NCBI GenBank assembly: GCA_036785375.1
Contig: JAWMAR010000103.1
Coordinates: forward strand, 434,001 to 498,000
Direction: 5' to 3'
DNA from: Leucoraja ocellata
Lineage: Eukaryota
Length of the DNA stretch: 64,000 nt
Below are positions 1,150 through 62,944 of the stretch, one piece after another. The notes under the pieces were generated by a model. It had not been told where the DNA came from, did not search any database, and saw only the letters and a list, made by a program, of their open reading frames with translations. Positions within the stretch are counted from its first letter, which is position 1, and each line of letters begins with the position of its first letter. A program made the position numbers and the translations under genes.

Positions 1150-1605
1150 ATAGAGAAGGACACAAAAGTGCTGGAGTGACACGTAGGGTCAGGCAGCATC
1201 TCTGGAAAACATGGATTTCTCCATTTCGTATTGTTGGAAACAAAACAACCGGCTTTGCACTCGGAGAAATGATAGTGAAGACAGTCCAAAGAAGGTTCCC
1301 AACCCAAAACATCACTTATCCATGGTCTCCAGGGATGCTTCCTCTGAGTTACTCCAGCAACTTAGTGTCTTTTTTTGCAAACCAGCATCTGCAGTTCCTT
1401 GTTTCTACAAGATGAGATCATCTATTGATTAGAGAATATAGATTTGTGTTATGACCATCCAATCAGTCTGAAGTAAGGCCTCGACCTGAAACATCACCTA
1501 TCCATGTTCTCCAGGGATGCAGCCTGACCTGCTGAGTTACTCCAGTACTTTGTGTCTTTTTATGTAAACCAGCATCTGCAGTTCCTTGCTTCTACAAGTT
1601 GAGAA
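1150..1605. mobile_element. Penelope-like element terminal repeats: an inverted pair (about 1150-1410) plus a further + copy (about 1460-1600)
   Basis: Recurrent motif 'gatgctgcctgacctgctgagttactccagca' and its reverse complement; degenerate ctgaag...gaaacatc core at about 1468-1495. Confidence 0.7.
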
Positions 1606-1954
1606 CACCTATTGATTGATGGAAAACTATTGGCCCATACTTTGGGGATATCTCCAACGTGAACTGGTAGTCCTTTTTTTTTAAATTACCACAATCACAA
1701 TATACTTTGGACAGGATATTGAGGAGATCTGTACTGATGTTTTCAACATAGTGCTGGGGGACTTTTCACATTCACTCTAAACACTGAAGTCATCTGAAAA
1801 ACTGTACCTGCCATAAAACTGCACTCTGTGTCATTTTGGACAATGTGCTCATGTCCTTGCGGAGGGACTTGAATCTACATTATATTGATTCAGAGACAAG
1901 GTAGGTTAATAAGGGAGGTTCAGTTCTTGGACCAAGAGGATTAAGTTCTGGATA

Positions 1955-2346
1955 GTCACAGAATGCTGGAGTAACTCAGCGAGTCAGACAGCATCTCTGG
2001 GGAAAGTTTTGGGTCAAGACCCTTTATCAGACTGTGTCAGGGAGGGGGAAACTAGAGGTATGGAAAGGTGCAGAACAAAGCAGAGCCTGCATCGACAACT
2101 CAAGAAAGGTGGAGCCCACAATGGTCCATTGTTGGCTGGGGACGAGGTGGTAATGAAGGGATACAAATTGTGAAATTAGCAAGAAGTCTAGGGTGGAGGA
2201 GGGATGGTGAGAGAGGGAACGCAAAGGTTACTTGAAGTTAGAGAAATCAATAATTGTGTCATTGGGTTGTAGACTCTCCAAGCAGAATATGAGGTGCTGT
2301 TCCTACAATGTACCTGTGGCCTCAGTCTGACAGTGGAGAAGCCCAG
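1955..2346 (-). mobile_element. Penelope-like retroelement 3' remnant (GIY-YIG C-terminus, 3' UTR, hammerhead-like terminal motif)
   Basis: Minus strand translates GLLHCQTEATGTL*EQHLIFCLESLQPNDTIIDFSNFK* (stop at 2228-2230), resembling the C-terminus of PLE GIY-YIG endonuclease. It is followed by a pyrimidine-rich UTR and the terminal motif. Confidence 0.75.
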
Positions 2347-2904
2347 TATCTGCATATAGTATATAGACTAGATATATGGACATCTTCCCAAACTGGTTTA
2401 ACTTCATCTCTAGCACATATGCCCGGATAAAGCAGGCCACAGACACAAAGCAACTTGGTTTCCTCTGCAACTCACAGCTTTACTACACCTATCAAAGCAA
2501 GCATACGAGCCACCCACATCTAGCTACAGAGGAAACCACAGTGTTGGCAGCTAATAACTGATATAACCTTGCCAGTGCAAGTGAGCTGCTGGCCTCAGTT
2601 TAACCAGAATTAAGACAGCCTGAAGATCAAGTTGACCTTCAGAGAAGGCACAAGATGGACATTAGTGAAGTGGCGGGTTACGTTACACTGTACATGACAT
2701 CAGTGGAAAGGAAGAATGGACACCGTTTAAGATGGTTTGTCGAATTTCTTGCAACCATTTCACATTCTCAACTTCACCCCGCCTCAACTAGAGAAAGTAC
2801 ACAGCACATCTCTCCACGTGCATCTATTGACTTTGCTTATGACATTGACGGACGAGTGAGTTGCATATTATACTGAGAACATTTCACAACGAACCTCCAC
2901 ATTT

Positions 2905-3175
2905 ATACACTTTATACAGCCCCACTTCTTCCCTCTCCCGTCAGGCAAAAGGTATCGAAGTGTGAAAACGCACACCTCCAGATTCAGCGATAGTTTCTTC
3001 CCAGCTGTTATCAGGCAACTGAACTATCCTACCAGAGAGCAGTCCTGAAACACTATCTACCTCAATGAAGACCCTCGGACTATCTTTCATCAGACTTTAC
3101 AGGCTTTATCTTGCACGAAACGTTATTCACATTATTCCCTTTAATATGTATCTCTACACTGTGGATGGCTTAATG
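2905..3175 (+). mobile_element. Rex1/Babar-type LINE 3' fragment
   Basis: 'FFPLPSGKRYRSVKTHTSRFSDSFFPAVIRQLN' remnant plus a 3' UTR shared with 17595-17910 and 24095-24305. Confidence 0.75.
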
Positions 3176-3251
3176 CTGACATAAAACCTGATACCAAGCA
3201 AGAGGAGAAGACAAACAAAACAATGACAGAGGAAGAAAGTGAGAGAGCGTG

Positions 3252-59690: not shown

Positions 59691-60419
59691 CCTTTTGATA
59701 GTTTGCGATTTGGCCTCAAACATATCCTGTAAACAAATTTGTGGCACAGGTTTCTCTGGTGTGAATTGTGTTTTTTGGATCAAAACACCAACATTAGTTC
59801 TGGCCTTTGCTGTCAAACGCTTCTTATCTCTGTATTCTTTTTGAAGCTACTGTTTTCAAAAACAAATTAAGTGCAAATTAACCGTGGTGAAAGAGCTGGT
59901 AGGTTTTCTTTGATGGGCTGACAGAACAGCAGTATAAAGTAAGGCATTACGGTCTGGTTTGAATGGGGTAAGTGGAGCCTAGACAGCAGCCAAAGTTACT
60001 GACGGCACTTTAAACATCCTATTAAGCGCAAGCAGGGTTATTGGTTTTATAACTGCCTGCCTTTTCAGACCTGTAACATCACAGATAAGGCACACTTATT
60101 AAGCATACATATAAAGCAGTGCTGTTTAAAGATCAAAGCCTCCTTTCCATTGATAAAAGCACTTGTGTTTTGTTTAATGGGTGTAGAGTACTCACTTGGT
60201 AGAAGTGATTTAACTCAAAACGTCACTGGCTCCTGCAAAATGAAGCTGGTTTACATGGTTCACTCAGCATTTCACCGTCTGTCATCACTGCCAGTTGCTT
60301 TTACAAAGTTGCTAAATTGTTTCCTCTCTATGGAGCTGACGTTTAAAGTACAAGTTCAGATGGGCATCGGGATAAGCACACTTCAACACAAATTTACCCA
60401 AGGTTTTCCAATGTACAAA

Positions 60420-60908
60420 ATGTTGCCTGGGTTTCAACAACTAAGTTACAGAGATAGGTTGAATAAGTTAGGTCTTTATTCTCTGGAGCGCAGAAGGTTA
60501 AGGGGGGACCTGATAGAGGTCTTTAAAATGATGAGAGGGATAGACAGAGTTGATGTGGACAAGCTTTTCCCTTTGAGAATAGGGAAGATTCAAACAAGAG
60601 GACATGACTTCAGAATTAAGGGACAGAAGTTTAGGGGTAATATGAGGGGGAACTTCTTTACGCAGAGAGTGGTGGCGGTGTGGAATGAGCTCCCAGTGGA
60701 AGTGGTGGAGGCAGGTTCATTGGTATCATTTAAAAATAAATTGGATAGGCATATGGATGAGAAGGGAATGGAGGGTTATGGTATGAGTGCAAGCAGGTGG
60801 GACTAAGAGGAAAAAAAAATTTTGTTCGGCATGGACTTGTAGGGCCGAGATGGCCTGTTTCCGTGCTGTAATTGTTATATGGTTATATGGTTACATGGTT
60901 ATATGGTT
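60420..60908 (+). mobile_element. young CR1 3' end with (ttatatgg)n tail
   Basis: Uninterrupted frame MLPGFQQLSYRDRLNKLGLYSLERRRLRGDLIEVFK...GMEGYGMSASRWD*. Confidence 0.92.
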
Positions 60909-61044
60909 TTACAAAGTAATCGAACATCTCCAACAAAATTACTGAAACATAGTCATTGCTTGATTTTAATGTGACGAGTTTAAAAACGTGAGATTTTTTC
61001 TGTGTTTCACCACATGGTGGGATTGAACTGTGCTTTATCTAATA

Positions 61045-61530
61045 GAGTGGCTACCTCACAGCGCCATAGACCCGGGTTTGATCCTGACCTCGGGTACTGT
61101 CTGTGTGGTGTTTGCTCTTTCTCCCTGTGACCTCATAGGTTTCCTCACGGTTGCGGTTTCCTCTCACACCTCAAAGATGGGCAGCGTGAAGAAGGGTCTC
61201 GACCCGAAACATCACCCATTCCTTCTCTCCAGAGATGCTGCCAGTCCCGCTGAGTTACTCCAGCTTTTTGTGTCTATCTTAGGTTTATAGGTTAATTGGC
61301 CTCTGCAAATTACCCCTAGTGTTATGTAGTATCTGGAGTAATTTACAGGGGCCAATTGACCTACAAACCTGCAGGTCTTTGGGCTGCGAGAGGAAACTGA
61401 AGCACCCGGAGGAAAACCACGCGGTCGCAATGAGAACGTGCAAGCTCCACAGAGACAACTTTCGAGGCCAGGGTCGATCCCGGGTCCTTGGCATTGTGAG
61501 GCACTCCACCAGCTGCTCCACCGTGCTGCC
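61045..61530. mobile_element. tail-to-tail V-SINE pair; the + copy carries a PLE terminus (61186-61280)
   Basis: Inverted central domains meeting at about 61320-61340. Confidence 0.8.
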
Positions 61531-62944
61531 CTGGAATCAAACCTTTATTTCAATCTCTTTGTAAATATAATCTCACTGATTAATTACCAAGTGAAACTTT
61601 AATCGATGGATAGCCACACTTAATGCGGATCCTCCAATTCCAACCAAGAAATGCCAAATCCAGATAATAACTAAGTGGTCAAAACGTAAAAAGAGTGGAG
61701 GTCCATATGGATTAGGGGAATGCATTTACACAGATCATTAAAATGTATCAGGTACAAGATCTAATCAGAAAGGTTAATTGAATCTAAATCTAACTTTAGA
61801 TTAGAATATCAATTTAGATTATCAAAAGAGATGACACAAACTAGATTTGTATTAAAAGCAAAAAGCAAAGTTCTGGAGGAACTCAGCAGACCAGCTGCAG
61901 CAGGAAATGGATGACAAAGTTTCGAGTCAAGACCCTTCTTCATTTTCTAAAGGGTTCGTGATCCAAAACGGCATTAGATTATTTCTCTTCACCAATGTTG
62001 CCTGGCCCATTGTTCCTCCAGTACTCTGTTTTTTTCTCAATATTCCAGCACCTGCATTTGCTTGGTTTGTATTCTCAGGCATATAGTTTGGTGGGAAGAG
62101 TGGCAGTGTGGTTGGGTGGATGGGGTTGGAAATTACTTTGAATGAGATATTTTCCATTTTGGTGAAGGAAGGTGTGAATTCAAGGGATACAATGTGGAGG
62201 ACTAATTTCAGGCAGTCCTTACTATCTCCTGCCCTTCTCAGCTCTCCCTCAGCCCTCTGGCTCCACCTCTTCCTTTCTTCTTCCATCGCTTTTGCGTTAA
62301 CTTAAATATTGCTTCAAAGTTTCATTTGACTTTTGAGACTTGGCAATGAAGTACTTTGTTGACCTGTCACTTTGATGACAACCAAGCACAGATCAACAGT
62401 ATTAAATTTGGCTTGACTCGTTTGCAAATGGCTGCTTCATTTCCCAGCCGTTTCACATCACTGCAGCGTTACCCATCTGTTGCAAAATGGAGTAACCAAG
62501 CTGAGAGAATTTACATTATCAATTCCAGTGCTCAGATCACATGCCAGCGGGGAGACCTTGTGTACTTCAACATAGCTGACGTCATCTTCACTGGACAATG
62601 AGTGCAGCAGAACTCAGTGCCTTTAACCATTCAGAGGCTCAGGAACCTCTCTTCAAGAAACACTGTGGGGAAAACCATAATCAGATTGCAACGGTTGCTT
62701 CCCTTTGTTGATAAAAAAACCCCAAGACTGATTGATAGATTAAGGATCACAGAAAAAAACAATTATAACAGGTTGTCGATCATGTTGCTTTGCTCATGGC
62801 TTTGGTCCTCCTTTGTGTTCAGGATCAATAGATGGTGAGGGAATCAAGGGAGACAGGGTGAGTGCAGTAAGGCGGTGCTGAGGTAGAAAACCTTATTGTA
62901 TATGGGCCAACATAAAAGGCCTATTCCAGCTTCCATTTCTCACA

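What the first reader, a model, noticed from the sequence alone, without database searches (positions are those of the whole stretch)
1150..62065. Dispersed Penelope-derived termini whose consensus is a minimal hammerhead ribozyme
Seen: about 20 copies of one motif, e.g. + strand at 10869, 14125, 18739, 22448, 39202, 57072, 61186, and - strand ending at about 2030, 15513, 17820, 27255, 46374, 56885, 61942. The consensus is CTGAAGA-A-GGGT-CTCG-ACCC-GAAA-CG-TC: a CUGANGA box, one extra A, a 4-bp stem II with tetraloop, GAAA, a palindromic ACGT in place of stem III, and a UH site. Many copy defects are CpG-type transitions. At 1955-2346 and 10061-10965 the motif lies downstream of a GIY-YIG C-terminal remnant. 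Established: Penelope-like elements carry minimal type-I hammerheads lacking stem III that are thought to act as dimers. Inference: this lineage has been seeded with ribozyme-like cassettes at roughly one per 3 kb, and some may cleave host pre-mRNA. Caveat: stem I is only about 2 bp (gt/ac) in this consensus and most copies have a core mutation.
Basis: partly seen in the sequence, partly recalled or inferred. Interest (0 to 1): 0.7.

Follow-up and report, generated by a model that had tools for sequence, protein, structure and literature searches.

The report
Decayed Penelope ends with broken hammerheads
This DNA, likely from a skate, holds 46 short, decayed ends of a Penelope-type retrotransposon; they carry a hammerhead-ribozyme-like motif that is broken in nearly every copy and likely does not cut RNA, and their back-to-back pairing suggests that both ends of the cut DNA likely primed copying of the same RNA.

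Summary
The repeat is real: 46 hits of a 100-140 nt unit, 31 spanning the motif. It is the 3' end (pLTR) of an EN+ Penelope-like element. The upstream remnant matches the C-terminus of shark and ray RT/GIY-YIG proteins with a Neptune-type linker, and copies have 13-18 bp target duplications. The majority sequence has the minimal hammerhead core, but stem I is 2 bp, so it fails the published descriptor (0 hits; 1 hit if 2 bp is allowed). Only 4 of 31 copies keep all core bases. G12 decays like other CpG sites, and the intact count matches neutral decay. Cleavage of host pre-mRNA is therefore unlikely. This fits twin priming at the two RT start sites reported for anole Penelope. PLE hammerheads, inverted ends and tails are published; the two-site reading of the pairs was not found in my searches. 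Verdict: new member of a known kind, interest 0.3.

The parts
1951..2347 (-). PLE 3' end: endonuclease C-terminal remnant (2231-2347, one in-frame stop), ~200-nt pyrimidine-rich spacer, defective core 2003-2030, body
10050..10976 (+). PLE 3' end bracketed by a 14-bp direct repeat (10050-10063 / 10963-10976): endonuclease remnant 10061-10120, nested other repeat (~10242-10390), core 10869-10896 (G12 and U16.1 changed)
45372..45975 (-). Third, weak endonuclease C-terminal remnant (45913-45975) with spacer pieces, interrupted by other repeats; no motif attached
15407..15560 (-). Solo copy with 17-bp target duplication (15407-15423 / 15544-15560); core 15486-15513 is the only one with all 12 core bases and a 4-bp stem II; the start of the motif is repeated in tandem upstream
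1144..1420 (.). Head-to-head pair (1144-1216 -, 1277-1420 +); tail on + arm
1413..1617 (+). Tailed solo copy, core 1468-1495 (A9 changed), 18-bp target duplication (1413-1430 / 1600-1617)
14051..14228 (.). Pair with non-overlapping arms: tail only (14068-14093 -) and untailed body (14118-14222 +, core 14125, U4 changed), inside a 13-bp target duplication (14051-14063 / 14216-14228)
18600..18831 (.). Head-to-head pair joined on the TCAGTCTGA near-palindrome; tail on - arm
21329..21604 (.). Head-to-head pair with a nested insertion in the + arm; tail on + arm
22078..22310 (.). Head-to-head pair; tail on - arm; core 22222 keeps all core bases but stem II is 2 of 4
22316..22590 (.). Head-to-head pair inside a 15-bp target duplication (22316-22330 / 22576-22590); tail on + arm; core 22448 keeps all core bases, stem II 3 of 4
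27160..27360 (.). Head-to-head pair; tail on + arm
34381..34600 (.). Head-to-head pair of a more divergent subfamily; tail on + arm
35318..35408 (.). Very short head-to-head pair; tail not called (partial tail on + arm by eye)
49962..50161 (.). Head-to-head pair; tail on + arm; - arm may carry the first ~13 nt of a tail
54149..54547 (.). Two adjacent head-to-head pairs; tail called only on the last + arm
56783..57208 (.). Head-to-head pair; - arm (core 56858-56885, core bases intact, stem II 3 of 4) runs ~180 nt into the spacer; tail on + arm
59287..59490 (.). Head-to-head pair joined on the stem II palindrome; tail on - arm
61849..62067 (.). Head-to-head pair; tail on + arm
8364..8471 (-). 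Solo copy (C3 changed)
17720..17822 (-). Solo copy, cut inside the CUGA box, inserted in another repeat
39165..39299 (+). Solo copy with spacer (G8 changed)
46271..46880 (-). Solo copy with interrupted spacer (G12 changed)
52468..52571 (-). Solo copy (C3 and G12 changed)
58684..58862 (+). Tailed solo copy, stem II partly deleted
61186..61287 (+). Solo copy inserted in a SINE-like repeat (C3 changed)

Best explanation
These are 5'-truncated, neutrally decaying 3' ends of a Penelope-like retrotransposon, likely of the Neptune type, whose hammerhead-like motif is a likely inactive passenger, and whose head-to-head pairs likely arose when both DNA ends of one staggered cut primed reverse transcription. 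Steps: (1) Shown: the unit lies downstream of an endonuclease C-terminal remnant, and 5 insertions have 13-18 bp target duplications. (2) Inferred from the anole PAc system: the element's RT-endonuclease cuts both strands and starts cDNA at two sites about 37 nt apart. (3) Inferred: one 3'-OH starts at the tail end and the other at the tail start, probably on the same RNA. The two short cDNAs are then joined 5' to 5' through palindromes, microhomology or filler, giving a pair with the tail on one arm. Solo copies would come from single priming. (4) Shown: after insertion the core decays at background rate. (5) Predicted: no self-cleavage in host transcripts, because stem I is 2 bp, helix III needs a same-strand partner, and inverted arms pair with each other instead.
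For: PLE identity: the 2231-2347 remnant aligns at 45-63% identity with the C-terminus of whale shark, zebra shark, devil ray and stingray proteins. The whale shark protein carries RVT_1 and GIY-YIG (the latter above Pfam's cut-off) and a CX4CxxC linker. Two shark proteins read through from the endonuclease end into the motif's frame (P0010, P0018). Target duplications: 2 of 15 pairs and 3 of 14 solo copies. Pairs: 15 observed against a random mean of 2.2 and maximum of 9 in 5000 trials; tail on one arm in 13 of 15, on both in 0 of 15 (p=0.007). Arms share non-majority bases at 49/250 against 0.10 when re-paired at random (14 pairs, p=2e-4). In 7 of 13 tailed pairs the untailed arm holds at least 10 columns of 5' sequence that the tailed arm lacks, and in 14068/14118 the arms do not overlap (two further calls set aside by eye). 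Neutral decay: G12 changed in 12/33 against 34/110 for other CpG G's; 4 intact cores observed against 4.0-6.7 expected. Descriptor: 0 hits. Rfam: no hammerhead match. Folding: stem I probability at most 0.003 in all 11 copies folded; 11 of 12 pairs fold at z of -2.9 or lower. Literature: min-HHR monomers did not cleave and dimers cleaved weakly (PMC4209133); the PAc HHR needs protein and is dispensable for insertion in vitro (PMC11167929).
Against: Non-CpG core positions are better kept than the whole 3' body (34/301 against 612/2729, p=3e-6). They only equal the best body windows (0.11-0.13), and the seeds were picked by core likeness, but some constraint on the source elements is implied. 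Published PLE hammerheads with a 2-bp helix I exist (Drosophila, Culex, Oikopleura). No RT, linker or GIY-YIG core survives in the window, so the clade rests on homologues. No clear target duplication was found for 13 of 15 pairs. One untailed arm (49962) may carry a partial tail. In 3 pairs the tailed arm is the longer one, and only 3 of 15 junctions sit on palindromes. Later deletions at the centre of inverted repeats, or gene conversion between arms, could mimic the asymmetry and the shared bases.
Confidence: 0.75

Rival explanations
1. One reading: the copies are dispersed ribozyme cassettes, some of which cleave host pre-mRNA as dimers or with protein help.
For: The majority sequence has every core base, the extra base after A9, G10.1-C11.1 and the palindrome. 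4 of 31 copies keep the core. Two of them (22222, 22448) lie 226 nt apart on one strand and, by inspection, could form the 4-bp dimer helix.
Against: Both of those copies have broken stem II (2 of 4 and 3 of 4) and predicted stem II probability 0. Neutral decay of G12, 0 descriptor hits, 25:21 strand split. 8 of 9 Xenopus retrozyme dimers did not cleave in vitro (bioRxiv 10.64898/2026.07.22.740005, passage).
Confidence: 0.07
2. Same PLE origin, but the inverted pairs form by self-priming or fold-back at palindromes (on a cDNA or an antisense template), and the tail is left by endonuclease resolution, as proposed by Arkhipova and colleagues.
For: Published model (PMC3846280; PMC8557442). 3 of 15 junctions sit on palindromes. 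Arms share variants. In 3 pairs the tailed arm contains the other arm, and in 2 they are about equal.
Against: In 7 of 13 tailed pairs each arm holds sequence the other lacks, and one pair inside a target duplication has non-overlapping arms. Simple copying of one arm from the other cannot give this without later deletion.
Confidence: 0.3
3. The short unit is a non-autonomous retrozyme- or SINE-like element that is mobilised in trans from its own short RNA beginning near the CUGA box.
For: 22 of 46 5' ends fall in model columns 38-57, around the core, in tailed and untailed copies alike (one search shows unrelated flanks upstream of most).
Against: At least 8 copies extend into the PLE spacer and 2 reach the endonuclease. 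No tandem array was seen among neighbouring hits. 5' ends also spread to column 117.
Confidence: 0.12

Closest known systems
Minimal type-I hammerheads (min-HHR) in pLTRs of metazoan Penelope-like elements (Cervera and De la Pena 2014, PMC4209133)
   Same: CUGANGA plus one extra base, G10.1-C11.1, GAAA, palindromic 15.2/16.2, UH, no helix III; thousands of dispersed single motifs from truncated PLEs; pairs on opposite strands.
   Different: Stem I is 2 bp, against at least 3 in their descriptor; their few 2-bp cases are G-C only and mostly keep a small helix III. No cartilaginous fish appears in the text of their Fig. S3 alignment as extracted.
Neptune (or Nematis) clade EN+ PLEs
   Same: The closest full proteins have RT, then a CX4CxxC linker, then a GIY-YIG with two internal cysteines (definition in PMC8557442).
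   Different: Only about 40 C-terminal residues survive in the window; no RT tree was built.
Anole Poseidon PAc (Frangieh et al. 2024, PMC11167929)
   Same: HHR upstream of two 3' end points separated by a tail; both target strands cut and extended in vitro.
   Different: Different clade. The PAc HHR cleaves with protein help. The parts I read do not link the two start sites to inverted pairs.
Adineta vaga Penelope insertions with inverted pLTRs (PMC3846280)
   Same: Head-to-head inverted pLTR, 31-bp tail optionally on one arm, 8-10 bp target duplication, palindromes at junctions.
   Different: Here the whole insertion is usually just two ~100-nt ends, duplications are 13-18 bp, and arms are often not nested.
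Animal non-LTR retrozymes (bioRxiv 10.64898/2026.07.22.740005)
   Same: pLTR-derived, HHR-bearing, reported in one chondrichthyan.
   Different: These are tandem units, each with an HHR; the copies here are solo or inverted.

Membership tests
EN+ Penelope-like element | Telomerase-like RT followed by C-terminal GIY-YIG endonuclease | tested here: met
   Met through homologues: the window remnant matches the C-terminus of RT+GIY-YIG proteins. No RT remains in the window.
EN+ Penelope-like element | 5'-truncated inverted pLTR copies | tested here: met
   15 head-to-head pairs against 2.2 expected.
EN+ Penelope-like element | Optional 30-40 bp tail at one end | tested here: met
   ~37-nt tail on one arm in 13 of 15 pairs.
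EN+ Penelope-like element | Target-site duplication of variable length | tested here: met
   13, 14, 15, 17 and 18 bp in 5 of 29 loci examined.
Neptune/Nematis clade | CX2-5CxxC linker between RT and endonuclease | tested here: met
   Present in the homologues P0014, P0021, P0023 and P0026; not preserved in the window.
Neptune/Nematis clade | Placement in an RT phylogeny | not tested
   No reference PLE RT set was at hand.
min-HHR | Core boxes CUGANGA, GAAA and UH | tested here: met
   Met in the majority sequence; complete in 4 of 31 copies.
min-HHR | Stem II of 3-7 bp closed by G10.1-C11.1, with an extra base after A9 | tested here: met
   Majority 4 bp; G-C in 15 of 29 copies.
min-HHR | Palindromic 15.2/16.2 | tested here: met
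   Majority CG; decayed to TG or CA in most core-spanning copies.
min-HHR | Stem I of at least 3 bp (published descriptor) | tested here: not met
   Third position is A x C in 12 of 16 copies; 0 descriptor hits.
min-HHR | Covariation in stems | tested here: inconclusive
   3 A-U double changes at the first stem II pair against about 1.8 expected (hand count); 1 in the other three pairs. No DNA from other species was available.
min-HHR | Self-cleavage as a dimer or with protein | not testable with these tools
   Needs bench work.
Rfam hammerhead families | Match to a covariance model | tested here: not met
   None at E<=1 on the window or E<=10 on two copies. That these models expect a helix III is recalled, not from a call.
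Non-LTR retrozyme | Tandem units, each with a complete HHR | tested here: not met
   One directly adjacent same-strand pair (1277/1457), both cores defective; Tandem Repeats Finder was not run.

The most novel reading that the evidence does not exclude
The inverted ends and one-sided tail of Penelope-like elements come from obligatory two-site twin priming. A dimeric RT-endonuclease starts cDNA from both ends of one 13-18 nt staggered cut, one subunit at each of two tandem sites on a single sense RNA. In this lineage the hammerhead has shrunk to a non-catalytic relic whose palindromes serve as joining points for the two cDNAs. No antisense template is needed.
Probability: 0.4. Interest if true: 0.6.

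Novelty: new member of a known kind. Interest (0 to 1): 0.3.

Why it matters
As a ribozyme finding it is ordinary: PLE hammerheads are published and these copies look dead. The value lies in the insertion anatomy. How Penelope-like elements make inverted ends with a one-sided tail is still open. This family offers about 15 compact pairs per 64 kb, and likely very many genome-wide, on which fold-back and twin priming make different predictions. The ~200-nt hairpins predicted for the pairs, and a likely splice acceptor just before the motif, are more probable routes to effects on host RNA than cleavage.

Tried and rejected
Rfam gave no hammerhead match. A single-sequence word search with the remnant found nothing. 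Pfam did not match the 43-aa remnant or six short homologues. The top four phmmer hits and one more (P0002-P0005, P0013; long proteins with many short stretches) were dropped as likely artefacts; 7 of 12 hits were kept. The ESM Atlas gave only a lead: GIY-YIG on 15% of a cluster at score 0.89. Reading stem I of relatives from read-through peptides was too degenerate: three shark peptides are compatible with a purine-first 2-bp stem and a U.G pair in stem II but fix no bases. I recall that some rays have a longer stem I in this repeat; this is from memory and unchecked. Cleavage-defined 5' ends were considered and rejected: 5 of 46 ends lie in columns 70-81, no more than an even spread gives. 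Rescue of stem I by splicing was considered and rejected, because the bases next to the core would not change (by inspection). Two reviews (PMC5718144, PMC12910113; passages) held nothing on the mechanism.
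Full report
Observation. A fuzzy search confirmed the named copies. An extended HMM found 46 hits at E<0.01, with a best hit of E=1.1 on the reversed window. 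The unit is about 100 nt: the 28-nt motif, a ~65-nt body, an optional ~37-nt tail, and in 8 copies an upstream pyrimidine-rich spacer. Divergence from the window majority averages 0.176 (range 0.09-0.35, 41 copies), and several subfamilies are mixed. The read-through peptide of the motif best matches two isoforms of the skate Rhinoraja longicauda (86% and 76%), so the window is likely from a skate or close relative (inference).

Origin. The frame at 2231-2347(-), read with X at its stop, found 12 proteins by phmmer, of which 7 are the same C-terminal domain. A profile of these found 17 longer proteins, including whale shark, zebra shark, devil ray, stingray and skate entries. P0014 has RVT_1 (below Pfam's cut-off) and GIY-YIG (above it), with a CX4CxxC linker between them. 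That linker marks the Neptune and Nematis clades (PMC8557442, passages). Searching back found three remnants, at 2231-2344, 10061-10120 and 45913-45978, and no convincing RT. The second remnant and the 10869 motif lie within one 14-bp direct repeat, although that score equals the maximum of 75 random trials. P0010 and P0018 run from the endonuclease end into the motif's frame, so the linkage also holds in sharks.

Is it a hammerhead? The majority has all core bases, the extra base after A9, a G-C-closed 4-bp stem II and a palindromic ACGU. This matches the metazoan min-HHR consensus (PMC4209133; main text parts 1-2 of 4 and the whole supplement text read). Stem I is U-A plus G-C, followed by an A x C mismatch in 12 of 16 copies. 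The published descriptor needs 3 bp and finds 0 hits; allowing 2 bp finds 1, the 15513 copy; 60 shuffles gave none at either setting. Rfam found no hammerhead. So it descends from and resembles a min-HHR but fails one defining test. Published 2-bp cases exist.

Are the copies active or selected? 4 of 31 core-spanning copies keep all 12 core bases and 1 also keeps stem II; that one has G.U at 10.1-11.1 and no palindrome. Non-CpG core positions change at 34/301 against 612/2729 in the body (p=3e-6), but the best body windows are at 0.11-0.13 and the seeds were chosen by core likeness. I read this as constraint on source elements, not on copies. G12 is changed in 12/33 against 34/110 at other CpG G's, and body rates predict 4.0-6.7 intact cores. 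Stem II changes are mostly wobbles or breaks. Folding gives stem I probability at most 0.003 in 11 copies, and 11 of 12 pairs fold far below shuffles (doublet shuffles, 15 each). The only same-strand couple with intact cores (22222, 22448) has broken stems II and is flanked by complementary arms. In print, single min-HHRs did not cleave, and the PAc HHR needs protein and is dispensable for insertion (PMC11167929, parts 1-2 of 4; its supplement was not seen).

Insertion anatomy. 30 of 46 hits form 15 head-to-head pairs (random mean 2.2, maximum 9). The tail was called on one arm in 13 pairs, on both in 0 and on neither in 2: one has a partial tail by eye, one is cut by the next pair. The probability by chance is 0.007. 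The tail probe came from these same copies, and the 49962 arm may hold a partial tail. Target duplications of 13 and 15 bp enclose 2 of 15 pairs, and duplications of 14, 17 and 18 bp enclose 3 of 14 solo copies. Arms share non-majority bases twice as often as re-paired arms (14 pairs, p=2e-4). One search flagged 8 of 13 tailed pairs with a 5'-longer untailed arm. I set one aside as a palindromic overlap (59287), leaving 7, and treat 61849 as ambiguous; 3 have a longer tailed arm. In 14068/14118 the arms are complementary parts of one end, tail alone against body alone, inside one duplication.

Mechanism. Inverted pLTRs, an optional tail and junction palindromes are known, and were explained by self-priming on an antisense template (PMC3846280, passages) or by endonuclease resolution (PMC8557442). 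PAc cuts and extends both strands, starts at two sites bounding the tail, and is predicted to be a dimer. Priming from both 3'-OH ends of one staggered cut, one at each site, gives head-to-head arms, one tail, an enclosing duplication and non-nested arms, without an antisense RNA. This is inference; central deletions and gene conversion could mimic part of it. Searches for Penelope with twin priming, pLTR, inverted, tail and integration terms showed no listing that makes this link. Arkhipova 2006 and Evgen'ev and Arkhipova 2005 were not read and may. Searches with shark or skate terms showed no paper on this family's hammerhead. A 2026 preprint reports retrozymes in one chondrichthyan (bioRxiv 10.64898/2026.07.22.740005; part 1 of 5 and passages); its supplements were closed and may list this family.

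Verdict. It is a new member of a known kind with a degenerate, likely inactive hammerhead. Interest is 0.3, owed mainly to the testable pair anatomy.

Noticed in passing
window 2032-2229 (-); 10120; 45912; cores with spacer at 2030, 10869, 39202, 46373, 54206, 54391, 56885, 58729: A GTAAC follows the endonuclease end in 3 of 3 remnants. A 72-93% pyrimidine tract precedes the CUGA box in 8 of 8 spacer-bearing copies and ends in CAG in 5 of 8. This may be an intron ending at stem I, as in Drosophila virilis Penelope. Two skate RefSeq isoforms (P0035, P0037) enter the motif's read-through peptide at this point, hinting at exonisation.
   Followed up: partly
model columns 38-57 of the repeat: 22 of 46 5' ends cluster around the CUGA box and stem II, in tailed, untailed and solo copies, and not at the cleavage site. 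Unexplained.
   Followed up: partly
repeat body end and tail: The tail repeats a 7-nt word of the body end, and both ends finish in a similar TGT-TCTA-like word by eye; possibly two equivalent protein-binding sites.
   Followed up: partly
protein P0036: A mis-predicted protein from the EukProt set, likely a shark, reads through what looks like the same head-to-head pair joined at the CUGA box (by inspection).
   Followed up: partly
proteins P0012, P0023, P0028, P0029: RefSeq ray and skate isoforms named for host genes (neuromedin-U receptor 1, DIPK1C, ULK1, DCC) contain PLE-derived sequence; gene models, not verified.
   Followed up: no
window 28274-29990: LTR-bounded element with a weak retrotransposon gag match (E 0.003) and a short internal region.
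   Followed up: no
window 42570-45300 (-): LINE with APE endonuclease and RT frames, CR1-like by recalled likeness; it abuts the third PLE remnant and an N gap.
   Followed up: partly
window 26100-26190; 41585-41860; 20759-20861: Other short inverted duplications unrelated to this repeat (by eye); the Rfam microRNA matches are all below the gathering scores.
   Followed up: no
window 22680-22765: Possible small exon with splice-like signals, by eye; no host gene was identified.
   Followed up: no
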